DNA from: Delftia acidovorans NBRC 14950
GTDB taxonomy: Bacteria; Pseudomonadota; Gammaproteobacteria; Burkholderiales; Burkholderiaceae_C
Length of the DNA: 32,000 nt
Reading direction: 5' to 3'
Assembly (NCBI RefSeq): GCF_001598795.1
Contig: NZ_BCZP01000026.1
Location: 1 to 32,000 of the forward strand
Shown here: positions 121 to 25,619 of the stretch, piece after piece
Layout of the letters: every line of letters begins with the position of its first letter
Numbering within the stretch: the stretch's first letter is position 1
The notes under the pieces: model-generated
What the model saw: the letters and a program-made list of their open reading frames with translations, nothing else
The model's database searches: none
What the model was told of the DNA's origin: nothing
Position numbers and translations under genes: made by a program

Positions 121-677
121 TCTGCGCAGCTCAGATGAGCATTACATGTTCCTCCGCTCGGTATCAACATATTGGATTTACAGGCTCCAGGATCCGCACC
201 CTCTACAACAATTTCAGTAATACGCACGGACTTGCCACTCGTGTTGCGAACCTCAACAAATGGCAGCGGTGTAGTGACATCAATCGGAGGCACAGAAATA
301 CTCAACACACCACCAGAATCGGAGGAAAGCTCTAACGCGCTGGACTTCGCCTGTACTGCCAGACCTCCCAGTCCCAGAGAGCCGAGAAGACAAAATGCCA
401 GTAGCCCATAGAGCCCCCCTACCTGCTGCCGGCGCCAATAATACGTCCCTGCAATAGCCATCAGAACGACCAGTACACCGATACCGGTAGCGGACAAGGA
501 GGGAATTGAGGAAACGTCTGCAGGCACTCCTAACGTAGCAGCCATCTGATACGTTATCGTGTTTTCGCACACGTCGTACCTTGATGCGGGCTCCGCCAAC
601 GCGGTTAGCGGAAGGACAACAAGTGTCAAGAGTCCCCTTTTTTTGGAAGGAGTAATGTTAATTTTCCGAAGAGACAT
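1..677 (-). CDS. Partial secreted or membrane protein (3' end off-window) with a signal peptide, an internal IPTL-CTERM-like motif, a second signal-peptide-like segment and Pro-rich pentapeptide repeats
   Basis: This ORF is not in the supplied track because it runs off the edge. My minus-strand translation from ATG 677 reads MSLRKINITPSKKRGLLTLVVLPLTALAEP..ADVSSIPSLSATGIGVLVVLMAIAGTYYWRRQQVGGLYGLLAFCLLGSLGLGGLAVQAKSS..SDPQPVTPRPISPTPVDPAPVNPTPVGPTPVNPTPVNPT and stays open to position 1. An alternative in-frame ATG lies at 545. The region is AT-richer than the prophage. Confidence 0.55.
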   Translation of the reverse strand, partial: MSLRKINITPSKKRGLLTLVVLPLTALAEPASRYDVCENTITYQMAATLGVPADVSSIPSLSATGIGVLVVLMAIAGTYYWRRQQVGGLYGLLAFCLLGSLGLGGLAVQAKSSALELSSDSGGVLSISVPPIDVTTPLPFVEVRNTSGKSVRITEIVVEGADPGACKSNMLIPSGGTCNAHLSCAESDPQPVTPRPISPTPVDPAPVNPTPVGPTPVNPTPVNPT

Positions 678-901
678 AAAACGAATCCAATCCTATGAAG
701 ATAAGTTCACTGAAACCAACAAATTCATCGTGAAGCTCCTCACTAAAACAGTGAGGTCCTTCCCTCTGTTGTATTCATGCGGATGGACTCGTTGCACGCA
801 TATGAGAAGACATTCTCATCATGAAGCAAAACTATCGAAAATGACAAATCCAAGAAAATTTAACAATGTTGTCTCCAGGCCGCGTGGGTCTCATCGCCAA
901 A

Positions 902-1387
902 TCAGCGGGATAGCGTCCAGCTTGATGGCCACGCACCGTGAATCAATCGAACATCATCTGCGTGCCCTGCAGCCGTCGCTGCCATGTCTCCATACGCTGC
1001 GCGGCAGTCGTCGTATACGGCGTTGACGGCAGTGGCGTACTCAAGGACGGCAGCGGGGGGAGCGTCGGCAAGTCGGCGGGCTGCATCTGCGGATTGCTCG
1101 CGCAGGCCGTCAGAGACAGCGCGCAGCTGGTCAAGATCACGGCGCAGCAGCACCTCGCGGGTTCGGGCAGCATTCAGCGCCTCCTGGTATTTGGTGTTGA
1201 TGGCCTTCTCGGCCTGGCGCACGCGGGCGTCGGCCGCGCGCTGGGCTGTGCTGACAGCCAGCTTTTCGCCCACAGCTGCAGCGCGGGCCTCGGCCAGGTC
1301 GGCGCCCAGGCGCGCGCCCTGGTAGCTCCAGGCCAAGAACGCGGCCAGGCCGGCGGCGGCCAGATGGGTGATGGCGCGCACGCTCAT
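902..1387 (-). CDS. i-spanin (Rz-like)
   Basis: This is the internal ATG (MSVRAITHLAAAGLAAFLAWSY..) of ORF 902..1510. It has an N-terminal TM helix followed by a charged coiled-coil-like region. Its start overlaps the endolysin stop (ATGA), and it contains an embedded +1-frame lipoprotein ORF. Confidence 0.7.
   Translation of the reverse strand: MSVRAITHLAAAGLAAFLAWSYQGARLGADLAEARAAAVGEKLAVSTAQRAADARVRQAEKAINTKYQEALNAARTREVLLRRDLDQLRAVSDGLREQSADAARRLADAPPAAVLEYATAVNAVYDDCRAAYGDMAATAAGHADDVRLIHGAWPSSWTLSR
943..1173 (-). CDS. o-spanin (Rz1-like lipoprotein) embedded in the i-spanin gene
   Basis: The product MLPEPARCCCAVILTSCALSLTAC|ASNPQ.. has a lipobox (LTAC) followed by a Pro-rich mature part (PADLPTLPPLPSLSTPLPSTP). 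The ORF lies entirely inside 902..1387 in another frame. Confidence 0.7.
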   Translation of the reverse strand: MLPEPARCCCAVILTSCALSLTACASNPQMQPADLPTLPPLPSLSTPLPSTPYTTTAAQRMETWQRRLQGTQMMFD

Positions 1388-1962
1388 TGCTGCACACTCA
1401 TGCACGCCGCGTGCCGCGCCTGCTGGCGGGTCCAGACACCACGGCAAACCTTGTTGCCCGGCGCCGAGCAGTCGAAGCGCCACCGGGTGGGCTGACCGCC
1501 CACGCCCCACTGGTAGGCAGCGTAGCCCTGCAGGGGCTGAGTGCTGGTCATGAAGCGATAGGCCAGGTAGGCCTGGCAGGCGCCGGCATAGTCGCCGGCT
1601 CGCGTGCGCGACAGCATCGAGGAGCCGCGCCAGGCGCCGCAGCCGTACTGGCCCGCGAAGTCCACGGCCTGGGCGAACTCGGCCGGGTGCACCAGCGTGT
1701 CGCCCAGCGAGGCCCTCACGCAGGCGCCGTACTCCTGGTCCAGCAGGTTGGCAGCCAGGTCGCGCGCCCGTTCGCGTGTGATGGGCGGATCTGCCATGGT
1801 CACGCGCGTGCCGTCTTCATAGCGCGTGGCGCCATGGCCGATTGTTGGCACGTCGCCGCGCACCGGGATGATGGGGCCGGAACTGAAGCCCTCGGCAAGC
1901 ATCCAGCCGGCCAGGATGGCCGCACCCACGCGCAGGCCTGCAGCAGGCACACGGCCGGTCAT
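1384..1962 (-). CDS. Phage lysozyme (GH24-like) with an N-terminal SAR-type weakly hydrophobic segment
   Basis: This is the internal ATG (MTGRVPAAGLRVGAAILAGWMLAEGFSS..GDVPTIGHGAT..) of ORF 1384..2112. It shows an EG..D..T(I)G.G lysozyme-like motif. Its start overlaps the holin stop. Confidence 0.75.
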   Translation of the reverse strand: MTGRVPAAGLRVGAAILAGWMLAEGFSSGPIIPVRGDVPTIGHGATRYEDGTRVTMADPPITRERARDLAANLLDQEYGACVRASLGDTLVHPAEFAQAVDFAGQYGCGAWRGSSMLSRTRAGDYAGACQAYLAYRFMTSTQPLQGYAAYQWGVGGQPTRWRFDCSAPGNKVCRGVWTRQQARHAACMSVQQ

Positions 1963-2285
1963 TGCTCGTCTCCTTCGCGGCCACCCGCCATACGTACGAT
2001 GCGCGCGCGGTCCGTCTGGTGCTCCTGGTCCATGCGGTAGTCGCGGCGCCACTTCCAGGCAAGATGCGCCACCTGTAGGGCGATGAGGATCAGCGTGGCC
2101 ACGATCACCCAAGCATTGCCCGTGAGTCCCAACAACGTGGCCTCCGTCTGCTGGGTGGCGACGGCGCCCGCGCTGGCGCCCACGGCAGGCGCGGACTTCA
2201 CGCCGGCCAGAATCAGGTCGTTCTTGTGCTCGGCGGTCAGGCCGTTGGCCAGGCCGAGCACTTCCTTGAGGGTGTCGATATTCAT
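1959..2285 (-). CDS. Holin (possibly pinholin-like)
   Basis: The 108-aa product has a G/A-rich weak hydrophobic segment, a strong TM helix (NAWVIVATLILIALQVAHLAW) and a charged C-terminus. It lies immediately upstream of the endolysin, and its ATG overlaps the portal stop. Confidence 0.6.
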   Translation of the reverse strand: MNIDTLKEVLGLANGLTAEHKNDLILAGVKSAPAVGASAGAVATQQTEATLLGLTGNAWVIVATLILIALQVAHLAWKWRRDYRMDQEHQTDRARIVRMAGGREGDEQ

Positions 2286-10538: not shown

Positions 10539-10693
10539 GTCAGTGCCACTGCCCGGGCGGATGACTCCCGCAGGGCCGGTATGTGCGGTACCGCACAGCG
10601 CCGCTGGGCACGGCCCGTAAGATGAAATGGCGTCATTCCTATTGTCTTCACACTCTCTTGAAGAGGCGGGATGACTGCCCTGGGGTTTCCTTT

Positions 10694-11413
10694 ATGTCCA
10701 CTACCGCCGCATCCACGGGCAATTATTTGCTCGCCTCCTTGTCGCCTGGGCCATGGCAGCGGTGGGAGCCTGCGCTGGAGCCCGTGGAGCTCGCGCTAGG
10801 CCAAGTGCTTTATGAAGCAGACCGGGTCATGAGCCACGTGTACTTTCCCACGACCGCGATCGTCTCACTACTGTACGTGATGGAGAACGGTGCGTCGGCA
10901 GAGATCGCGGTGGTGGGCAACGAAGGGATTGTGGGCGTTTCCCTCTTCATAGGCGGAGGGTCCACTACCAGCAGGGCGGTCGTGCAAAGTGCCGGCAGGG
11001 CCTACCGGTTGAACGTGGGCGCCATGCATGCAGAGTTCGAGCGCGGCAGTCCCGTGCTTCACCCGCTGCTGCGCTACACGCAGGCGTTGATCACCCAGAT
11101 GGCCCAGACTGCCGTCTGCAACTGCCACCATTCACTTGACCAGCAACTCTGCCGCTGGCTGCTGCTGAGCCTGGATAGGCTTCAGGGCGCGGACCTGGTT
11201 ATGACGCAGGAGCTCATATCCAACATGCTGGGCGTGCGCCCCGATGGCGTGACCGAGGCCGCGCTGAAGCTTCAGCGCGCCGAGATCATCCACTATTCGC
11301 GTGGCCGCATCAGTGTGCTGGACCGTACGGGCCTGGAGCAGCGCTCCTGCGAGTGCTATGCGGTGGTGAGAAAAGAGTACGACCGCTTGCTGCCGGAAAT
11401 CACGGCTTGCTAG
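10694..11413 (+). CDS. Crp/Fnr-family transcriptional regulator
   Basis: From the ATG at 10694 the product is 239 aa. It has a cNMP-binding-like beta-roll region (..YFPTTAIVSLLYVMENGASAEIAVVGNEGIVG..) and a C-terminal HTH (..TQELISNMLGVRPDGVTEAALKLQRAEIIHYSRGRISVLD..). Confidence 0.85.
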   Translation: MSTTAASTGNYLLASLSPGPWQRWEPALEPVELALGQVLYEADRVMSHVYFPTTAIVSLLYVMENGASAEIAVVGNEGIVGVSLFIGGGSTTSRAVVQSAGRAYRLNVGAMHAEFERGSPVLHPLLRYTQALITQMAQTAVCNCHHSLDQQLCRWLLLSLDRLQGADLVMTQELISNMLGVRPDGVTEAALKLQRAEIIHYSRGRISVLDRTGLEQRSCECYAVVRKEYDRLLPEITAC

Positions 11414-19223: not shown

Positions 19224-19565
19224 ATGAATGCACGACTCCCCTCTATCTGCTGGGCCTCAGTGGCCGCGGCAGAGAACGCGGCGCGCTACGACCGCGCCGA
19301 GGCAGAAGACGCCGAACTCGACGCCTATGTCCGCGACTACTACGGCCCGCCATTCGCGGCCGAGTTCGTGCAGGAAGCCCTGCAGGCCGCGCAGTACGAG
19401 CTGGCCCAGCAGATCGCCACCGCCAGCGAGCGCATGGGCCAGAGCCTGAACCCCGAACACCCGCAGCTGGCCGTCATGGGCAACTCCATGGACGAGTGGC
19501 TGCGGGCCTATGCCCGCCAACGTGCCCGCGAAGACATCGCAGACCTTCAACGAAACCGCCACTGA
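19224..19565 (+). CDS. Hypothetical phage early protein
   Basis: The ATG at 19224 has a GGAGG SD, and the 113-aa product begins MNARLPSICWASVAAAENAARYDRAEAEDAELDAYVRDYYGPPF... Confidence 0.55.
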   Translation: MNARLPSICWASVAAAENAARYDRAEAEDAELDAYVRDYYGPPFAAEFVQEALQAAQYELAQQIATASERMGQSLNPEHPQLAVMGNSMDEWLRAYARQRAREDIADLQRNRH

Positions 19566-19578
19566 TCGAGGAGCCACC

Positions 19579-19788
19579 ATGCACCAACGTGACGAAATTC
19601 CGGACCCGCCGCCGCTGGCATGGCTGATTGCCGTGCTGCTGGGCATCAGCCTGCTGTGCCTGCAGGCAACGCTGGACGATGAGCCCGGCAAGGCGCCGCC
19701 TGCCACCGTCAGCGCCCTGGCATGCCCCGGAATGCACGCCGAATGGGTGAGCGAGAGCGTAGTGGAATGCCACCGCGAAAAGCCATGA
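19579..19788 (+). CDS. Small membrane protein
   Basis: The ATG at 19579 has a GAGGAG SD. The 69-aa product has one TM helix (PLAWLIAVLLGISLLCLQA). Confidence 0.5.
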   Translation: MHQRDEIPDPPPLAWLIAVLLGISLLCLQATLDDEPGKAPPATVSALACPGMHAEWVSESVVECHREKP

Positions 19789-19943
19789 AGCTGTCCGAAC
19801 TCACCGACGCCGAGAAGGTGCCGCTGCTGATGGAGTGGCTTGAGGAAACCGCACAGAAGCTGGACAGGGCCTGGCCCGCTGGCGGCGCCCGCTACCTGGC
19901 ATTCGTCAGGGAAATGCGCGGCGATCCGGAAGACCCGGAATGA
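19785..19943 (+). CDS. Hypothetical small protein
   Basis: The ATG at 19785 overlaps the upstream stop (ATGA). The product is 52 aa. Confidence 0.45.
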   Translation: MKLSELTDAEKVPLLMEWLEETAQKLDRAWPAGGARYLAFVREMRGDPEDPE

Positions 19944-19981
19944 ACGCCCCACCCACCAAGCGCCACGCCGGCGCCGACCAT

Positions 19982-20009
19982 CGCCCGCTGCTGCGGGCGT
20001 TTCTTTTTT
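19982..20009 (+). terminator. Rho-independent terminator
   Basis: The stem is CGCCCGC-tgct-GCGGGCG, followed by TTTCTTTTTT. It lies directly upstream of the erf SD. Confidence 0.7.
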
Positions 20010-20028
20010 GACAACCCGCGAGGATCCT

Positions 20029-20781
20029 ATGAACGCTGTTTCCAAGACTGAAGCGGCAGCAATCGACATGGTGCCAGCGGCAATCATGGCGCCCCCTGCC
20101 CCGGTCATGTCTCCTGCTGCGCACTTTCTGCTGACGCTCCAAGAGCGCGGCGTGCCCCCCGAGCAGATCGAAAAATTGATGGATCTGTGGGAACGGGGTG
20201 AGCGCCGAGAAGCCGAAAAGGCCTACAACGATGCGCTGGCGGCTTTCCAGGCCAAGGGGATCAGGATCGTGAAGCGCAAGGCCGTGGACTTCACCACCAT
20301 GAAGGGCCGCACCAGCTACATGCACGCCGAACTGGACGACGTGGTGCAGGCCGTGGGCCCGGAGCTGTCCGCCCACGGCTTCTCGCGGTCCTGGGAAACC
20401 AGCCAGGCCGGCCGCGACATCACCGTGACCTGCAAGCTGCGGCATCGTCTGGGGCACAGCGAGAAGATATCGCTCACGGCCCAGCCCGACGAGACGGGCG
20501 GCAAGAACGCCATCCAGGCGATCATTTCCACCACGACCTACTTGCAGCGGCACACGCTCAAGCAGATCACGGGCGTGGCCGAGGCCGGCGAGGATGACGA
20601 CGGCCAGGGCGGCGCGGCCGCGCCTCTCTCCGATCTGGCTCAGGGCTGGATGGACTACATCATCAGCGTGCGCGGTACCGACAAGTTCGCCGAGGCCTGC
20701 CGCGAAGGCCGTGCCGCCCTCACCGAAGACCGCGCCGGCCTCATCGCCTTCAACGCTGCCGCCACAAGAGGCGCGCCATGA
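20029..20781 (+). CDS. erf: ERF-family single-strand annealing protein
   Basis: The ATG at 20029 has a GAGGA SD. The region ..VKRKAVDFTTMKGRTSYMHAELDDVVQAVGPELSAHGFS.. matches the ERF pattern, recalled from memory. The gene is coupled to the downstream exonuclease. Confidence 0.7.
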   Translation: MNAVSKTEAAAIDMVPAAIMAPPAPVMSPAAHFLLTLQERGVPPEQIEKLMDLWERGERREAEKAYNDALAAFQAKGIRIVKRKAVDFTTMKGRTSYMHAELDDVVQAVGPELSAHGFSRSWETSQAGRDITVTCKLRHRLGHSEKISLTAQPDETGGKNAIQAIISTTTYLQRHTLKQITGVAEAGEDDDGQGGAAAPLSDLAQGWMDYIISVRGTDKFAEACREGRAALTEDRAGLIAFNAAATRGAP

Positions 20782-21869
20782 GGGCCATCCTGTTTCGCTG
20801 CTCGAGCATCGGCAGGTTGATGACCGCGCCCGCGAGCATCGACCACGCGCTGATCACGCCCGAGGTCGAGGCCATCCAGGCCAAGAAGGAGCGCACAGAC
20901 GAGGAAAAGGCCCTGCTCGAAGACCTCAAGCTACGCACGCTCAGCGAAGGCGCCAAGACCTATATCCGCGAGCTGGTGCGGCAGGAAATCTGGGGCGTGG
21001 ACTTCAGCTTTTCGAGCAAGTACACCGAAAAGGGCAAGGCCGTGGAAGCGGAGGGCCTGGCACTGCTGAACCGCGTGCGCGGACTGAACCTGGCCAAGAA
21101 CACGGAGCGGCGCAGCGACGGCCAGATCACGGGTGAAGCCGACACCGTGGACCTGGTGCGCCGCTGCGGCCACGATCTGAAGTGCTCATGGAGCCTGCAG
21201 ACCTTCCCGGCCTTTGTGCGTGACTGCGAGGACGCCCTGTATGCCTGGCAGATGCGAGGCTACATGCGGCTGTGGGACCTGGAGCGCTGGGAGGTCAATT
21301 ACGTCATGGTCAACACCCCTGAGGATCTGCTGGGCCAGCATGAGCCGCAACACATCCATCTGGTCGAGCACATTCCCGAGCATATGCGCCTGACCACCTG
21401 GGCCATTGAGCGCGACCGCGCGCTGGAGGCTCAGATGGACGTGAAGCTGGAACTGGCCCGGGCCTACTACGCGCAGTGCATCGCAGAATTCACGGCCACG
21501 CATCTCATCCCTGGCCTGCCCGCCACTTCGCTAGCTGCGCCCTGGCAGCCGCCGCTGGAGCTGATCGATATCCAAGAGCCGCCCCGCGTGCTGGGCCATG
21601 TGCAGGAAGATGGCCGCGCCCTCTTGCTGGTCGAGGAGCCCGCACCGGACCCAGCGCCACCAGAGACGGTGCCCACGCTGAACATCGGGCAGATCAACAA
21701 GCGCCTGGGCATCTTCGACGTAAAAGCCACCACGGCCGCGGCCCTGGGCATTCCCACGCTCAAGGACCGCAGCGCCGTGCATCTACCGGCCAGCAGCTTT
21801 ACGGACTTCTGCAATGGGCTCATCGCCCATATCGCCGACGTGCGCGACAGCTTCCAAGCCCAGCCATGA
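20778..21869 (+). CDS. YqaJ/lambda-Exo-like PD-(D/E)XK recombination exonuclease with a C-terminal extension
   Basis: The 363-aa product has ..GEADTVDLVRRCGHDLKCSW.., a D..D-x-K-like motif. Its start overlaps the erf stop. Its position as the SSAP partner supports the call. Confidence 0.65.
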   Translation: MRAILFRCSSIGRLMTAPASIDHALITPEVEAIQAKKERTDEEKALLEDLKLRTLSEGAKTYIRELVRQEIWGVDFSFSSKYTEKGKAVEAEGLALLNRVRGLNLAKNTERRSDGQITGEADTVDLVRRCGHDLKCSWSLQTFPAFVRDCEDALYAWQMRGYMRLWDLERWEVNYVMVNTPEDLLGQHEPQHIHLVEHIPEHMRLTTWAIERDRALEAQMDVKLELARAYYAQCIAEFTATHLIPGLPATSLAAPWQPPLELIDIQEPPRVLGHVQEDGRALLLVEEPAPDPAPPETVPTLNIGQINKRLGIFDVKATTAAALGIPTLKDRSAVHLPASSFTDFCNGLIAHIADVRDSFQAQP

Positions 21870-21988
21870 GTCTTCGCAGCGTTTTCCTTGGCCTCGCAGG
21901 CATGAGCCTGCTGGCCGACAGCATTGGCTTTGCCGGTGCATTCCTCCTGGCGGCCGCAATTGCGGCATGACCAGAACTTTTAATCCAT

Positions 21989-22019
21989 GGCCCTACCAAA
22001 AGAAGGGCCCTACTTTTCT
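21989..22019 (+). terminator. Possible terminator after the recombination genes
   Basis: The stem is GGCCCT-accaaaaga-AGGGCC, followed by ctacTTTTCT. The loop is long and the T-tract is interrupted. Confidence 0.35.
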
Positions 22020-22041
22020 AAACCCTACCGGAGAAAAACCA

Positions 22042-22323
22042 ATGAACGACTACAAGACCCTGCTGCAGCAAAAGGCAGAACTGGATGCACGCATCGCAGA
22101 AGCGATGAAGACTGAAAAAGCCGGCGCTGTGGCAGAGGTCCGCACACTGGTTCAGCAGTACCAGCTGACTGAGCAAGATGTCTTTCCTTCCCGCAGCGCC
22201 AAGCCGAAGGGCTCTGTGGGCGAGCCCAAGTACCGCGATCCGGCCACCGGCGCGACCTGGACCGGCCGGGGCAAGCCGCCTAACTGGATTCAAGGGAAAG
22301 ACAGATCTTCCTTTCAACTCTGA
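22042..22323 (+). CDS. H-NS-family nucleoid-associated protein, prophage-encoded
   Basis: The ATG at 22042 has a GGAG SD. The 93-aa product has an N-terminal coiled coil and the C-terminal motif ..YRDPATGATWTGRGKPPNWI.., which is typical of the H-NS DNA-binding domain. Confidence 0.8.
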   Translation: MNDYKTLLQQKAELDARIAEAMKTEKAGAVAEVRTLVQQYQLTEQDVFPSRSAKPKGSVGEPKYRDPATGATWTGRGKPPNWIQGKDRSSFQL

Positions 22324-22357
22324 ATCCGGACTTCACAATCCTTTTTTATCGAGTAAT

Positions 22358-22846
22358 TCATTTCCCCGGTGCTTGAACCGAGTTTTGACCCATCGTTGGC
22401 AATAAGTGAATTTGTGGCACTGGGGGTTCATGAAAAACACCTGCAATCGCTATCACTGCCGTTACAATTGCCCCTAGCGCCGTAGCAATCGCAGCCCATT
22501 TAGCCCAATTAGCGGCCCTTTCTGCTGCAACTGCTGCGCGTTCAGCAACCAAATACTCCGCGCGCACCATTTCATCTCGACGCTTACGCTCCTCTGCTTC
22601 AAGCCAGAGTTGCGCAAAGCGCCGTGACGTCTCATCGACTTCAGCGTTTACAGCCAATGCCACCCGGAGAAATGCCTCTCCGTCCGGATTGAAACCATCA
22701 ACCCAATTTTGCACTGAACTAACAGAAAGGAATTTCACACGCAAGTGCTGAGACGCCAAAGCCCTCTCTGGATTTTTAAAATAGAAATTGAACCATCCTT
22801 TTTTGCTCTCAGCAACGTCATCTATTTTATCCATAGCTACTATCAT
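22358..22846 (-). CDS. Unknown tail-anchored membrane protein (cassette gene B)
   Basis: Possible starts are ATG 22846, ATG 22834 and TTG 22855. The protein has an ~75-aa N-terminal domain, a charged helix (EAEERKRRDEMVRAEYLVAERAAVAAERAA) and a C-terminal TM helix (WAAIATALGAIVTAVIAIAGVF). It is AT-rich relative to its surroundings. Confidence 0.55.
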   Translation of the reverse strand: MIVAMDKIDDVAESKKGWFNFYFKNPERALASQHLRVKFLSVSSVQNWVDGFNPDGEAFLRVALAVNAEVDETSRRFAQLWLEAEERKRRDEMVRAEYLVAERAAVAAERAANWAKWAAIATALGAIVTAVIAIAGVFHEPPVPQIHLLPTMGQNSVQAPGK

Positions 22847-22884
22847 GATAGTCAACCGTTAGAAAACTAGCAAATTTTCAGAAT

Positions 22885-23457
22885 TTAAATCTTATACATA
22901 GTTACTCCGGGATGTTTTACTCTAACCATCTGAATAAAATCCTCAAGAGCTTCTTGCAACAATTTCGCAGTAGAAATAATTTCTGTGTTTTTCTCAGGAG
23001 ATTGAATCAATATCTCACATAATACCTTCGTCTGCGCCGATATAGATCTTGTCCCTTCGAGTGCAGCTGACCAACTTATATGCAAATATTCTGCCTGAAT
23101 TGTCGCAGCTATAGCTAATTGCTCGCATACGACCGCGTGTAGAAGCTTAACATCCGCTGTCGACAGGACCGAAACTGCCACAAGTCTTTCCAGATGGGAA
23201 GAGGTAGTTGCAACAAAAGTCCTTATCTTACTTATAGCTGATATTTTTTGCAAATGTACTTGCTTTGCGTACTGCAGCTTAACCACCAAAAACGCACCGA
23301 GCAACGCAAGCACAGAGCCGACGGCCTGGACCCACCCAGCCCACTCTGACTTTGTCATACAAACCGCCCACCAATCAATCCATAAAAAACAATATTCAAT
23401 TGGCTGGTTTACTATCTGACCATCGGTATTAGCACTAACCGCTTGACTCCATTCCAT
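22885..23457 (-). CDS. Unknown N-terminally anchored membrane protein (cassette gene A)
   Basis: The ATG at 23457 has an AAGGA SD 7 nt upstream. The 190-aa product has a Trp-rich N-terminus, a TM helix (WVQAVGSVLALLGAFLVV) and an ~130-aa helical domain. It is the AT-richest coding sequence in the window. Confidence 0.55.
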   Translation of the reverse strand: MEWSQAVSANTDGQIVNQPIEYCFLWIDWWAVCMTKSEWAGWVQAVGSVLALLGAFLVVKLQYAKQVHLQKISAISKIRTFVATTSSHLERLVAVSVLSTADVKLLHAVVCEQLAIAATIQAEYLHISWSAALEGTRSISAQTKVLCEILIQSPEKNTEIISTAKLLQEALEDFIQMVRVKHPGVTMYKI

Positions 23458-23541
23458 GGATTCATCCTTTAATACTCAGGAAAATGAACGCACACAGTCC
23501 TTCTTGTGCAGTCACCAGAGTTCATACGACCGATCACCAAG

Positions 23542-24255
23542 ATGTTGCCACAAAATATGAGTGCCAAAAAACAAAAACGAGCCATATGGAATGATCAGTT
23601 AACAAGTCAGCTTTACATCCTTTACCCGGACATGCCAACCGAGCAAGTAGCACAAATACTGGGGTGCAGCATGTCTGCAATCTACCGACAGGCTGTTGCC
23701 CTGGGGATCAAGAAATCCCAGGCCTTCAACGAAAGCGAGCACAGCGGACGAATTCAGCGCGGCAGGAATGACCCTCGGATGGTGGCCACGCAATTTCAAC
23801 CTGGACTCACGCCCTGGAACAAAGGCGTGCCTGGGTCGACGGGTCACCATGAAAACACCCGAGCAACGCAGTTCAAGACGCGCCGGCCGGAAGAGGCCAG
23901 GAACTACTTGCCCATCGGCAGCCTGCGCGTGACGCGCGACGGGCTTCTGGAACGCAAGATGACCGACGACCGGGCAATCGTCCCTGCACGGCGCTGGACA
24001 GGAGTGCACCGACTCGTCTGGGAAGCTGCGAACGGTCCAGTGCCAGAGGGTCACATCGTCGTGTTCCGGCCTGGCCAGCGGACTACCCAGGAGGCCGAAA
24101 TCACTATCGATCGCCTCGAATGCATCAGCCGCGCCGAGAACGCGCGCCGAAACCATCCCGCCCGCAAGTCTCCCGAGCTGGCCAAGCTGGTCCAGCTCAA
24201 GGGCGCCATCACTCGCCAGGTCAACCGCATTGCAAAAGAGAGCCAACCGAAATGA
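23542..24255 (+). CDS. HNH-type endonuclease-like protein with an N-terminal HTH-like region
   Basis: The start is uncertain (GTG 23506, ATG 23542 or ATG 23557). The C-terminus ..VPEGHIVVFRPGQ..ITIDRLECISRAENARRNH.. fits the phage HNH_3-like pattern. Confidence 0.65.
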   Translation: MLPQNMSAKKQKRAIWNDQLTSQLYILYPDMPTEQVAQILGCSMSAIYRQAVALGIKKSQAFNESEHSGRIQRGRNDPRMVATQFQPGLTPWNKGVPGSTGHHENTRATQFKTRRPEEARNYLPIGSLRVTRDGLLERKMTDDRAIVPARRWTGVHRLVWEAANGPVPEGHIVVFRPGQRTTQEAEITIDRLECISRAENARRNHPARKSPELAKLVQLKGAITRQVNRIAKESQPK

Positions 24256-24542
24256 GCACCCCGCACATCACCCTCGTTCGCCAGCAGTTGTTGGACACGC
24301 TGACAGATCTTCGCAACCGCGAGCAGCCCATGGACGTAGACCGCGCCCGTGCAGTGGCTCAGGTGGCCTCTGTTCTCGTTGACACGGCTAAGGTCGAAGT
24401 GGAGTACTTGAAGGTCACGCACTCGGACCGGAGCGACTTCCTCGAAGCACCGCCCACGGCGCCGCAGTTGCCTGCCCCCAGCAGCACGCCTACCCCACAC
24501 AACCCCTTTCCTACGTCGGTTCGGCACACCCTGGCCGGCTGA
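24252..24542 (+). CDS. Hypothetical phage protein
   Basis: The ATG at 24252 overlaps the HNH stop. The product is 96 aa. Confidence 0.5.
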   Translation: MSTPHITLVRQQLLDTLTDLRNREQPMDVDRARAVAQVASVLVDTAKVEVEYLKVTHSDRSDFLEAPPTAPQLPAPSSTPTPHNPFPTSVRHTLAG

Positions 24543-24602
24543 TCAACCGCATCCACCATGCTCCGGCCCGCCTTGCGCGGGCCGCTTCGTTTCTGCATCC
24601 AC

Positions 24603-24785
24603 ATGTCCAAGACCACACCCCAGAAGCCCTACACCCCTCCCAGCAACTGCTACCAGGGCACGGAGCTGAAACCGCATCCAGGCCTGCCGGCCTCGCGCTT
24701 CTATGCCTTCACGCTGCCCAGCCGAGTAGGCGGGCATCTGTACTACCCGGAACCCGCGCGCCGCGTCCAACCTTTCCCTGCCTGA
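24603..24785 (+). CDS. Hypothetical small protein
   Basis: The ATG at 24603 gives a 60-aa, Pro-rich product. Support is weak. Confidence 0.3.
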   Translation: MSKTTPQKPYTPPSNCYQGTELKPHPGLPASRFYAFTLPSRVGGHLYYPEPARRVQPFPA

Positions 24786-24798
24786 TCTGGAGCCTCTG

Positions 24799-25353
24799 AT
24801 GACGATGATCAACACACCTCTGGTGCTGCTGGCACAGCAGTGCGGCGGCACCTTTCACACGCCAGGCCCGACGCGCGCCATCCGCGGTATGTGCTTCACC
24901 TTCGAGCAGTTGGAAGCGCTGGCTGAACGGCTGCGTGAAAGCACGGCCGTAGGGGCTGTCGGGGAGCCAGTCTCGCCGAAAAAGCCTCTGCCTCATGTAT
25001 CGCGGCATCGGTCTGGCATTGGAACGCCAGATGGTGCTGCGCAGGAGATAGCGAAGGCATTTCTACAAGATGGCCTGACTGTTCTGGTCGTAACGCACGA
25101 CGGCAAGGCCGCGCCGCCTGGAGCTCGAGCATGTGGGCCTGAAGACCTTGAGCATTCACTCGGTCTGACGTTGCTGGACGAGATGGACAGCGACCGTCAG
25201 GAGAAGGTAGTTGTGGTGATTGATGCACAGCCAATTTTTCATGAGGGACGCGTTTTCCACCCAATTAAGCCTGAGACAGTGACCAACATGATCAATTCGA
25301 TGCTCTCGGAGTATCCAAACGATGACCTGGCTGTGATCTACGTCCAGGAGTGA
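24799..25353 (+). CDS. Hypothetical phage protein
   Basis: The ORF is 184 aa, and its 3' third is AT-richer than the rest. Confidence 0.5.
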   Translation: MTMINTPLVLLAQQCGGTFHTPGPTRAIRGMCFTFEQLEALAERLRESTAVGAVGEPVSPKKPLPHVSRHRSGIGTPDGAAQEIAKAFLQDGLTVLVVTHDGKAAPPGARACGPEDLEHSLGLTLLDEMDSDRQEKVVVVIDAQPIFHEGRVFHPIKPETVTNMINSMLSEYPNDDLAVIYVQE

Positions 25354-25373
25354 TTCAGAAAAATCCAGAAAAC

Positions 25374-25619
25374 ATGAACACCTTTTTTGCACTCATGGCG
25401 GAATATGGGACTGCCCACATTCCAGTAGAGAAATGCGCCGATATCTTCGGCCTTTCGCCAAGAAAGGCTTGCGAGGCGGCCGGCCGCCAACGGCTTCCGG
25501 TCCCCGCCTTTCGGTTGGGATCACAAAAAAGTCCGTGGTTGGTGGACGCACACAAGTTGGCCGAGTACCTCGACCGCCTCAAACAAGAAGCGGACGCCGA
25601 TTGGCAGAGGCTGCAGTAG
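25374..25619 (+). CDS. PrtN-family (pyocin-activator-like) or excisionase-like DNA-binding protein
   Basis: From the ATG at 25374 the product reads MNTFFALMAEYGTAHIPVEKCADIFGLSPRKACEAAGRQRLPVPAFRLGSQKSPWLVDAHKLAEYLD.., which matches the PrtN-family pattern from memory. It is adjacent to the integrase. Confidence 0.65.
   Translation: MNTFFALMAEYGTAHIPVEKCADIFGLSPRKACEAAGRQRLPVPAFRLGSQKSPWLVDAHKLAEYLDRLKQEADADWQRLQ

What the first reader, a model, noticed from the sequence alone, without database searches (positions are those of the whole stretch)
22358..23541. AT-rich antisense two-gene membrane-protein cassette inside the early-left operon: candidate novel prophage exclusion or defence module
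The plus-strand early operon (19224..25619) is GC-rich. It is interrupted by two minus-strand ORFs (22885..23457 and 22358..22846) that are visibly much more AT-rich than anything around them.

The cassette has its own upstream intergenic region (23458..23541). An HNH-like gene with an AT-rich 5' end shares that region divergently. The first gene has a good SD.

Protein A has a Trp-rich N-terminus, one TM helix and an ~130-aa helical domain. Protein B has an ~75-aa N-terminal domain, a long charged helix and a C-terminal TM anchor. I recognise neither family.

Opposite orientation, foreign composition, a position between the recombination genes and xis/int, and small membrane proteins also characterise lambda rexAB/sieB, P22 sieA and many prophage defence hotspots. 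A phage H-NS-like gene lies immediately downstream and could silence or tune this AT-rich locus.
Basis: partly seen in the sequence, partly recalled or inferred. Interest (0 to 1): 0.75.

Follow-up and report, generated by a model that had tools for sequence, protein, structure and literature searches.

The report
Two stacked orphan prophage membrane genes
An AT-rich insert in a Delftia prophage carries two unrelated, uncharacterised membrane-protein genes that recur, mostly apart, as backwards-facing cargo in related prophages, so they are plausible but untested phage-exclusion genes, not a fixed two-gene system.

Summary
Two minus-strand genes, A (22885..23457, 190 aa) and B (22358..22846, 162 aa), lie in the deepest GC trough of the window. 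They are antisense to the early-left operon of a dusA-integrated Delftia acidovorans prophage, between a phage hns gene and an HNH gene.

Sister prophages with the same backbone carry other cargo in this 2.2-kb slot, so it is a moron-type accessory insertion.

Neither protein matches Pfam, NCBIfam, PHROGs, PADLOC or PDB by sequence. The fold searches run (both models against PDB, A alone against BFVD) also found nothing.

Both belong to real Burkholderiales prophage families:
- **A:** at least 116 clusters. A constant N-terminal Cys/Trp hairpin and TM helix is fused to at least 49 unrelated C-terminal domains. Predicted topology is N-out, C-in.
- **B:** about 39 representatives. It is tail-anchored with a conserved cytoplasmic domain.

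Each family is usually alone as an antisense gene in the same kind of slot. They co-occur in only 3 contexts, with different gene order. A third small family, C, partners either one.

The pair is therefore not a conserved unit. A defence or exclusion role is plausible but untested.

The parts
22324..24562 (.). Variable accessory slot of the early-left operon. It holds B, A, the HNH gene and orf99.
   Evidence: blastn against sister Delftia dusA prophages L058 and L060 shows homology ending at about 22295-22320 and resuming at 24563-24624. Those phages carry other cargo in between.
22885..23457 (-). Gene A (190 aa). Bitopic inner-membrane protein of a polymorphic family. Annotated in Delftia acidovorans as QQB52932.1 / WP_155294231.1, 'hypothetical protein'.
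   Evidence: Evidence. GC is 0.43 and GC3 is 0.40.
23272..23397 (-). Constant N-module of A (residues 21-62), sequence EYCFLWIDWWAVCMTKSEWAGWVQAVGSVLALLGAFLVVKLQ. It holds the invariant residues C23 and C33 and a Trp-rich turn.
   Evidence: Invariant columns are listed. Median pairwise identity is 60% here, against 23% in the rest of the protein. AF2 predicts strands 21-25 and 31-35, which would place C23 opposite C33 (the pairing is inferred).
23281..23340 (-). Predicted TM helix of A (about residues 40-59).
   Evidence: Hydropathy scan and the AF2 helix at 36-97. Across the family, net charge is -2.45 on the N side and +2.41 in the 20 aa after the TM, which implies N-out, C-in (inference from the positive-inside rule).
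22888..23271 (-). Variable C-terminal helical domain of A (residues 63-190). It belongs to one of at least 49 sequence types.
   Evidence: C-block identity between family members equals the shuffled control, 23%. BLASTP gives 49 clusters among 103 members, and the window's type has 14 members. AF2 predicts three to four helices.
23384..23389 (-). T6 homopolymer inside codons 23-25 of A.
   Evidence: Contigs L001 and L002 have T5 here, which frameshifts A, and a 157-aa product was called there. This is either a sequencing error or a real on/off variant.
22358..22846 (-). Gene B (162 aa). Tail-anchored membrane protein with a conserved cytoplasmic N-domain. Annotated as QQB52933.1, 'hypothetical protein'.
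   Evidence: Evidence. GC is 0.49 and GC3 is 0.41.
22433..22498 (-). Predicted C-terminal TM helix of B (about residues 117-138), followed by a Pro-rich tail.
   Evidence: Hydropathy scan. Conserved W114, A118, A119, G125, P141 and P142 appear in alignments A2 and A4. The AF2 helix spans 72-138.
22847..22884 (-). A-B spacer of 38 nt.
   Evidence: Sequence. The only promoter-like hit, at 22873..22845, overlaps B's start and is no more than chance gives (1 found against 1.5 expected). Co-transcription of A and B is inferred.
23458..23541 (.). Divergent AT-rich intergenic region between A and the HNH gene. It contains the SD of A (AGGA at 23465-23468).
   Evidence: Sequence. No sigma-70 consensus match was found here.
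22042..22323 (+). Phage H-NS-like gene (93 aa). It is a backbone gene that converges on the cassette.
   Evidence: PF00816 at 1.3e-13. It is conserved in sister prophages. Homologues of 60-65% identity lie convergent to A-type genes in L063, L073, L077 and L091.
23542..24255 (+). HNH endonuclease-like gene with an N-terminal HTH. It lies in the variable slot and has an AT-rich 5' end.
   Evidence: Evidence. A positional counterpart in L060 is only 24% identical.
24243..24542 (+). orf99, the last gene of the variable slot. Function unknown.
   Evidence: Evidence.

Best explanation
The region is a moron-type accessory insertion. It sits in a recombination-prone slot just downstream of the phage hns gene, in the early-left operon of a dusA-integrated Delftia acidovorans prophage. 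It stacks two independent orphan genes rather than one obligate two-gene system.

Protein A belongs to a polymorphic family of Burkholderiales prophage proteins. A constant N-terminal module (a two-Cys, Trp-rich hairpin plus one TM helix) is fused to a swappable helical domain.
- Inferred: the hairpin faces the periplasm and is disulfide-stapled.
- Inferred: the variable domain is cytoplasmic.

Protein B belongs to a smaller family of tail-anchored proteins with a conserved cytoplasmic domain.

Both genes are antisense to an operon that is repressed in lysogens, so they are most likely transcribed on their own from the prophage (inferred, not shown).

The most likely role is in phage-phage conflict, either superinfection exclusion at the inner membrane or abortive infection. 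In that model, A's constant membrane module is the anchor or effector, and its hypervariable cytoplasmic domain sets specificity. B would act separately or additively. The adjacent phage H-NS may damp expression of this AT-rich DNA.

Shown here: the insertion, the composition, the families, their architecture, the antisense context and the lack of an obligate pairing.
Inferred: topology, the disulfide, expression in the lysogen and function.
For: - **Insertion:** sister prophages share flanks at 83-96% identity but hold different cargo between hns and the 184-aa gene.
- **Foreign composition:**
- **A family size and range:** 116 clusters, 37 loci in Burkholderiales genomes and 46 IMG/VR loci.
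- **A family architecture:** the N-block has 60% median identity, while the C-block is at shuffled level. There are 49 C-terminal types. Selection acts on the protein, not the DNA. Charge asymmetry is -2.45 against +2.41.
- **Orientation:** in every locus where early-left genes were recognised (RecT, ERF, YqaJ, RdgC, KTSC, H-NS, HNH, Dam), those genes are on the opposite strand to the A homologue. This covers about 21 distinct loci. phiE125 gp45 shares the TM motif and the antisense position.
- **B family:** 39 hits at E below 1e-3 and 12 below 1e-10. B homologues are also antisense next to RecT/YqaJ or integrase.
- **No fixed pairing:** no B-like gene follows the A homologues. Co-occurrence is limited to the window, L078/79 and L021, with differing order. 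Family C lies upstream of A in four loci and upstream of B in one.
- **A-type genes are consistently lower in GC than their flanks:**
- **hns convergent on A in four more phages:**
Against: - There is no expression evidence. No sigma-70-like promoter was found upstream of A, and no intrinsic terminator after B.
- No similarity to any known defence or exclusion protein was found. PADLOC, Pfam, PHROGs, NCBIfam, PDB sequence search and Foldseek against PDB were negative for both proteins, and Foldseek against BFVD, run for A only, was also negative.
- A hypervariable domain on the cytoplasmic side does not fit a simple block of DNA entry from the periplasm.
- Three A-B co-occurrences among about 7 known B contexts is more than nothing, so some functional link cannot be excluded.
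- The hotspot's other cargo also has no defence annotation.
Confidence: 0.6

Rival explanations
1. A and B form one obligate two-component exclusion or abortive-infection system. One protein would sense infection and the other would depolarise the membrane.
For: - The genes are adjacent, on the same strand and only 38 nt apart, so they are probably co-transcribed.
- Both are membrane-anchored.
- The two families share a cassette in three independent contexts: the window, L078/79 and L021.
Against: - A homologues are mostly solo, and B homologues are mostly solo or paired with other genes.
- Order and spacing differ between the three co-occurrences (A then B; B, orfX, A; B, C, A).
- The closest full-length A homologues (P0041, P0049, P0030; 39-43% identity) have no B next to them.
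- There is no match to RexA or RexB, or to any PADLOC model.
Confidence: 0.12
2. The genes are lysogenic-conversion or prophage-housekeeping functions unrelated to phage defence. Examples would be membrane-tethered modulators of host envelope physiology, of cell division, or of prophage induction and lysis timing.
For: - The architecture is generic: a membrane anchor plus a small cytoplasmic helical domain.
- No defence homology was found.
- One A homologue is the terminal gene of a small non-phage integrative island (L005).
- The other cargo in the same slot is heterogeneous, for example a G/Q/Y-rich 244-aa protein in L058.
Against: - Extreme C-terminal polymorphism on a constant module (49 types) is more typical of conflict genes than of housekeeping genes.
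- The strict antisense placement in prophage early operons matches known exclusion genes. That comparison rests on established knowledge of morons (PMC3594210) and P22 sieA (PMC10883804).
Confidence: 0.22
3. The pair is a toxin-antitoxin or addiction pair. A small membrane toxin would be neutralised by its neighbour, which would stabilise the prophage.
For: The pair consists of two small adjacent genes on a mobile element, and one has a Trp-rich membrane module that could perturb membranes.
Against: - The partners are not conserved together.
- Solo A genes are common, which would be lethal if A were an unneutralised toxin.
- No TA family match was found.
Confidence: 0.04
4. The genes are phage lysis genes (holin-like or spanin-like), or the ORFs are chance features of AT-rich DNA.
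For: A has the gross shape of an i-spanin, with an N-terminal TM followed by helices.
Against: - The prophage has its own lysis genes elsewhere. A lysozyme lies at 1384..2112. An Rz-like ORF at 902..1510 has an embedded lipoprotein ORF at 943..1173 (read from the sequence).
- The position and strand of A and B are wrong for a late lysis cassette.
- Both ORFs have diverged homologues under purifying selection.
Confidence: 0.02

Closest known systems
Morons, meaning independently transcribed accessory genes of temperate phages (Cumby et al. 2012, PMC3594210)
   Same: The cassette is present or absent between otherwise syntenic phages. Its base composition is foreign, and it points against the surrounding operon. 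It encodes small membrane proteins.
   Different: The defining private promoter and terminator could not be shown. Two unrelated genes are stacked. One of them belongs to a family with a constant N-module and at least 49 C-terminal types.
P22 SieA, an inner-membrane superinfection exclusion protein (Leavitt et al. 2024, PMC10883804)
   Same: Both are small prophage-encoded proteins that are shown (SieA) or predicted (A, B) to sit in the inner membrane. SieA also exists in several types less than 30% identical to each other.
   Different: SieA has three predicted TM helices and a conserved cytoplasmic motif, FxRYPxEAxxFNK. A and B have one TM helix each, show no sequence similarity to SieA, and sit in a different genome position.
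Lambda RexAB and the lambda/P22 SieB abortive-infection genes
   Same: Both are lysogen-side conflict genes embedded in or beside the early-left region, and both have a membrane component. This comparison rests on established knowledge, not on a test here.
   Different: No Pfam, PHROG or PADLOC match to Rex or SieB was found. RexB is polytopic. The A-B pair is not conserved.
Burkholderia phage phiE125 gp45 (hypothetical protein; weak match to phrog_33632, function unknown)
   Same: It shares the TM motif SEWxxWVQAVGSxxAI..., and it is antisense in the early-left region.
   Different: gp45 has a full first TM helix where A has the Cys/Trp hairpin. Its C-terminal domain is unrelated, and its function is equally unknown.
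Polymorphic toxin systems (Zhang et al. 2012, PMC3482391)
   Same: Both have a constant N-terminal module joined to many unrelated C-terminal domains.
   Different: The proteins here are small, the variable domain is predicted to be cytoplasmic, there is no secretion apparatus, and no cognate immunity gene follows.
Prophage-encoded xenogeneic silencers, for example CgpS of the Corynebacterium CGP3 prophage (PMC5137423)
   Same: A phage-borne nucleoid-protein gene lies next to AT-rich prophage DNA.
   Different: Binding or silencing was not tested here. The hns gene is a backbone gene that is also present in sister phages lacking A and B.

Membership tests
Moron (phage accessory transcription unit) | Present in one phage and absent from otherwise syntenic relatives | tested here: met
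   Sister dusA prophages L058 and L060 share the flanks but carry other cargo in the slot at 22324-24562.
Moron (phage accessory transcription unit) | Base composition distinct from the phage backbone | tested here: met
   GC3 is 0.40-0.41 against 0.62-0.84 for the neighbours, and the trough is 4.2 sd below the mean.
Moron (phage accessory transcription unit) | Own promoter and terminator | tested here: inconclusive
   No sigma-70 consensus was found upstream of A. The single hit overlaps B's start and is within the chance expectation. The hairpin after B has z = -0.8 and no U-run.
Moron (phage accessory transcription unit) | Expressed from the repressed prophage | not testable with these tools
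   This needs RNA-seq or 5'-RACE of the lysogen. Only the antisense orientation argues for it.
RexAB-like two-gene abortive infection system | The two genes are conserved as a pair | tested here: not met
   A is solo in L004, L043, L046 and L047 and in the genome loci. B is solo or has other partners. The families co-occur in only 3 contexts, with different order.
RexAB-like two-gene abortive infection system | Sequence homology to RexA or RexB, and a polytopic membrane partner | tested here: not met
   PADLOC, Pfam and PHROGs gave no hit. A and B have one TM helix each.
P22 SieA | Three TM helices and the motif FxRYPxEAxxFNK (PMC10883804) | tested here: not met
   Each protein has a single TM helix, the motif is absent from both sequences, and no PHROG or BFVD match was found.
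SieB (Pfam PF14163) | Match to the family profile | tested here: not met
   The Pfam scan at E up to 1 returned nothing for A or B.
Any catalogued defence system (PADLOC-DB 2.0) | Match to a component model | tested here: not met
   No families matched A, B or the HNH protein at E up to 1.
Polymorphic toxin-immunity cassette | Constant N-terminal region with many unrelated C-terminal domains | tested here: met
   Identity is 60% in the N-block against 23% in the C-block, which equals the shuffled control. There are 49 C-terminal clusters.
Polymorphic toxin-immunity cassette | Cognate immunity gene immediately downstream, and a secretion or delivery domain | tested here: not met
   No conserved downstream partner was found. 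The proteins are 160-260 aa and have no trafficking domain.
Phage lysis cassette (holin or spanin) | Located with the endolysin in the late operon | tested here: not met
   The lysozyme at 1384..2112 and the Rz-like ORF at 902..1510 lie 20 kb away. A and B lie in the early-left region.

The most novel reading that the evidence does not exclude
Family A is a previously undescribed, polymorphic class of prophage immunity proteins. A constant periplasm-facing, disulfide-stapled Trp hairpin and TM helix would serve as the membrane effector. It would be fused to dozens of interchangeable cytoplasmic sensor domains. The genes would be mixed and matched with families B and C in an antisense hotspot, and kept in check by the phage's own H-NS gene lying convergent to them.
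Probability: 0.2. Interest if true: 0.75.

Novelty: new member of a known kind. Interest (0 to 1): 0.5.

Why it matters
If A, or A with B or C, excludes phages, it would add a Burkholderiales-wide family of membrane defence genes that no current catalogue detects. The family has a clear handle for specificity studies, because one constant module carries at least 49 natural C-terminal variants. It would also give a concrete case for testing whether a phage-borne H-NS regulates adjacent AT-rich cargo.

If the genes do nothing against phages, the locus is still a well-delimited example of cargo turnover at one slot of a dusA prophage lineage.

Tried and rejected
- **Profile searches of A and B:** Pfam, PADLOC, PHROGs and NCBIfam gave nothing. 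PHROGs gave only noise at E above 0.1 for A and B. phrog_33632 (function unknown) weakly matches gp45-type relatives.
- **PDB by sequence profile:** only coiled-coil noise at E of 0.12 or higher.
- **Foldseek:** the A model against PDB and BFVD, and the B model against PDB, gave no hit at E of 0.001 or below. The best hits were generic helical bundles. The afdb50 library was unavailable.
- **Close phage relatives in INPHARED:** none by megablast.
- **B family in other collections:** scans of IMG/VR and JGI metagenomes gave no confirmed locus. The first attempt failed for lack of a conserved stretch.
- **Promoter and terminator scans:** not above chance. Repeats in the slot are only short chance-level pairs, with no flanking direct repeats that would mark a transposon-like insertion. 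No tRNA is present.
- **dN/dS between near-identical copies:** not informative, because there is only 1 nt difference in A and none in B.
- **All-against-all clustering of neighbouring ORFs:** very noisy in these high-GC loci because of shadow ORFs. Only family C was taken from it.
- **Literature:** nothing on these proteins or on phiE125 gp45 function.
- **Conserved 5' end of A as a DNA-level signal:** rejected, because third codon positions are only 45% identical.
Full report
**1. Observation**

The two minus-strand ORFs exist as described. A is 22885..23457 (190 aa) and B is 22358..22846 (162 aa). B also has an alternative TTG start at 22855, and NCBI annotates a 158-aa form.

They lie in the deepest GC trough of the window:
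- Mean GC is 0.634, and 300-nt windows have sd 0.069.
- The minimum is 0.347 at 22751, which is 4.2 sd below the mean.
- GC3 is 0.40 for A and 0.41 for B, against 0.62-0.84 for the neighbours.

A has an AGGA 7 nt before its ATG.

- ERF at 20029..20781.
- An H-NS-like gene at 22042..22323 (PF00816, 1.3e-13), convergent on B.
- An HNH_3 gene divergent from A. Its first 180 nt are 0.46 GC.
- A PrtN-like excisionase and a tyrosine integrase next to dusA.

Exact-sequence look-up places the window in Delftia acidovorans. A is QQB52932.1 and B is QQB52933.1, both annotated 'hypothetical'.

**2. The cassette is an insertion in a variable slot**

Prophages at the same dusA site share ERF, a 373-aa gene, hns, a 184-aa gene, xis and int with the window (L058-L062). 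blastn shows 83-96% identity on both sides. Homology stops at about 22295-22320 and resumes at 24563-24624.

In between, the sister prophages differ:
- L058 has three other antisense genes of 82, 244 and 94 aa. The 244-aa protein is rich in G, Q and Y.
- L060 has no antisense gene. A diverged HNH-like gene, 24% identical to the window's, follows hns directly.

The slot at 22324..24562 is therefore a cargo hotspot. A and B are an insertion between hns and the HNH gene.

**3. Protein A**

Homologues:
- A single-sequence search found 19 relatives.
- A profile search found 116 clusters.
- A pattern scan found 37 loci in GTDB genomes, nearly all Burkholderiales such as Acidovorax, Variovorax, Comamonas and Delftia.
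- The same scan found 46 loci in IMG/VR.
- All are annotated 'hypothetical', and none has a Pfam domain.

Architecture:
- The alignment shows an almost invariant N-terminal block, EYCFLWIDWWxxCMTKSEWxGWVQAxGS, followed by a TM helix. After that the sequences stop being alignable.
- The 42-aa N-block has 60% median pairwise identity. The rest has 23%, the same as a shuffled control.
- BLASTP groups the C-terminal parts of 103 members into 49 clusters, 34 of them singletons. The window's type is the second largest, with 14 members.
- Codon-position identities of 0.67/0.81/0.45 show that the N-block is conserved as protein, not as DNA.

Structure and topology:
- AF2 (pLDDT 77.8) predicts strands at 21-25 and 31-35. 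That would put the invariant C23 opposite C33. The model continues with a long helix containing the TM segment and three further helices.
- Across the family, net charge is -2.45 before the TM and +2.41 in the 20 residues after it.
- By the positive-inside rule this implies N-out and C-in. The Cys/Trp hairpin would then be periplasmic and could be disulfide-bonded, and the variable domain would be cytoplasmic. This is inference, not a result.
- Shorter relatives keep two Cys residues, for example HCFVWC in L073 and GCIFPC in L091.
- Burkholderia phage phiE125 gp45 shares the TM motif but has a full first TM helix in place of the hairpin.

**4. Protein B**

The word-indexed search found only identical copies. 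The exhaustive HMMER search found 39 representatives at E up to 1e-3 and 12 at E up to 1e-10.

The alignment shows these conserved features:
- a WF(N/E)(Y/F)F motif;
- an FxSLxxVxxWV...G.LR core;
- an SRRxAxxWL motif;
- a long helix;
- an SA(K/R)W..WAA TM segment;
- a Pro-rich tail.

AF2 (pLDDT 80.8) gives a small helical N-domain and a 67-residue helix ending in the TM segment. B is therefore tail-anchored, with its bulk in the cytoplasm.

**5. Context of the two families**

Annotated contigs show A homologues as single antisense genes inside early-left operons:
- L004 lies between int and a gp49/RecT block.
- L043 lies between AlpA/int and RdgC-KTSC-YqaJ-RecT.
- L046 and L047 are similar.
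- One homologue is the last gene of a small integrase/AlpA/primase island (L005).

I ran a phmmer panel of early-left proteins over all held loci. Every recognised early-left gene was on the strand opposite to the A homologue, in about 21 distinct loci. A genes are consistently lower in GC than their flanks. No B-like gene follows them.

B homologues are likewise antisense, next to RecT/YqaJ or integrase. They are solo or preceded by unrelated small genes (L050, L052, L054, L055/56).

A B-family HMM run over all held loci found two further cassettes that also contain an A-type gene:
- L078/79, in the order B-short, orfX, A.
- L021, in the order B-like, C, A-like.

A third family, C (79 aa, motif GGPNWTV...YRADIAxIIR), came out of the neighbour clustering:
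- It lies directly upstream of A in L004, L009, L064 and L069.
- It lies between B and A in L021.
- It lies upstream of B in L054.
- It is absent from the window.
- It has no significant Pfam hit and no PDB hit.

The picture is a small pool of orphan genes (A, B, C and others) combined in different ways in one kind of slot. It is not a fixed A-B operon.

**6. The hns adjacency**

In L063, L073, L077 and L091 an A-type gene lies convergent to a phage hns gene. The gap between the A-gene stop and the hns stop ranges from an 11-nt overlap to 216 nt. These genes have 0.42-0.44 GC against 0.56-0.67 in their flanks. The H-NS proteins are 60-65% identical to the window's, and each A gene has a different C-terminal domain.

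The arrangement therefore recurs across diverged phages. However, hns is a backbone gene that is also present in sister phages without A. The adjacency could be functional, with H-NS silencing AT-rich cargo as the prophage-encoded silencer CgpS does (PMC5137423). It could equally just mark the hotspot. Nothing here tests binding.

**7. Tests against known families**

- Pfam, PADLOC, PHROGs and NCBIfam gave nothing for A or B.
- PDB profile searches gave only coiled-coil noise.
- Foldseek found no hit at E up to 0.001, for the A model against PDB and BFVD and for the B model against PDB.
- P22 SieA has three TM helices and a cytoplasmic FxRYPxEAxxFNK motif (PMC10883804). Neither A nor B has either feature.
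- The Rex and SieB profiles do not match.
- The prophage has its own lysis genes 20 kb away. A lysozyme lies at 1384..2112. An Rz-like ORF at 902..1510 has an embedded lipoprotein ORF. A and B are therefore not the spanin or holin.

**8. Expression signals**

The consensus scans give no support for a private promoter or terminator:
- One promoter-like site overlaps B's start, with 1.5 expected by chance.
- The hairpin after B has z = -0.8 and no U-run.

Lysogen expression therefore rests only on the antisense orientation.

**9. Interpretation**

The best-supported reading is a moron-type insertion that stacks two independent orphan membrane-protein genes. I give that reading 0.6 confidence.

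The specific role is less certain. I put about 0.35-0.4 on a role in phage-phage conflict, either exclusion at the inner membrane or abortive infection. In that model A's constant membrane module is the anchor or effector and its variable cytoplasmic domain sets specificity. The extreme polymorphism on a constant module and the strict antisense prophage position favour conflict. The complete lack of homology and of expression data keeps this a hypothesis.

**10. Novelty**

The kind of thing is familiar: prophage accessory genes for small membrane proteins. The families themselves are uncatalogued. A's design of one constant module with many C-terminal domains, and the mix-and-match of A, B and C next to a phage hns gene, are worth a targeted experiment.

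Noticed in passing
window 23384-23389 (codons 23-25 of A); L001 and L002: A T6 run inside the invariant motif of A is T5 in two metagenome contigs that are otherwise 99.9% identical. This frameshifts A, and a 157-aa product was called there. It could be a sequencing error or a homopolymer on/off switch.
   Followed up: partly
L004:3475-3714, L009:5695-5934, L064:5798-6037, L069:7743-7985, L021:5578-5910, L054:7620-7967: A third orphan family, 'C' (79 aa, motif GGPNWTV...YRADIAxIIR), lies directly upstream on the same strand of A-type genes in four loci. It also lies between a B-like and an A-like gene, and upstream of a B homologue. It has no significant Pfam hit and no PDB hit, and it is absent from the window.
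   Followed up: partly
L046:1110-1859: Downstream of an A homologue is a second membrane protein of 249 aa. Its TM segment (SWLQAIGAVAAIWW) resembles the A/gp45 motif, so it may be a tandem distant paralogue. It matches phrog_33632 weakly (E = 0.004).
   Followed up: partly
L058:8222-8956 (minus strand): In a sister Delftia prophage the same slot holds an antisense 244-aa low-complexity protein rich in G, Q and Y, plus two small ORFs. None has a Pfam or PADLOC match.
   Followed up: partly
window 10583-11413 (+): A Crp-like regulator (cNMP_binding plus HTH_Crp_2) sits in a local GC dip (0.58), within a region whose identified late genes (portal, lysozyme) are on the minus strand. It is another possible moron.
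   Followed up: no
window 551-950: This is the only other AT-rich patch in the window (GC 0.42-0.43). It lies just beyond the Rz-like ORF (902..1510, minus strand), which has an embedded Pro-rich lipoprotein ORF (943..1173). It may be the prophage end or another piece of cargo.
   Followed up: no
window 20778-21869 (+): A 363-aa protein immediately after ERF is conserved in all sister prophages (373 aa there) but has no Pfam or NCBIfam match. It may be the unknown partner of the ERF recombinase.
   Followed up: no
window 23542-24255 versus L060:7960-8643: The HNH/HTH genes occupying the same slot in sister prophages are only 24% identical. The HNH gene is therefore itself a fast-turnover allele and not part of the conserved backbone. 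HNH homologues also lie near A-type genes in L016, L070 and L091.
   Followed up: partly
L001, L003 (both end at window position 22251, inside hns): Contigs L001 and L003, from different sequencing runs, both break at the same base inside the hns gene. This suggests that the 3' part of hns is repeated or polymorphic in those samples.
   Followed up: no
L054:4865-6349: In the Xylophilus prophage that carries the C-B cassette, a Schlafen/AlbA_2-HATPase_c_4 protein sits next to the integrase.
   Followed up: no
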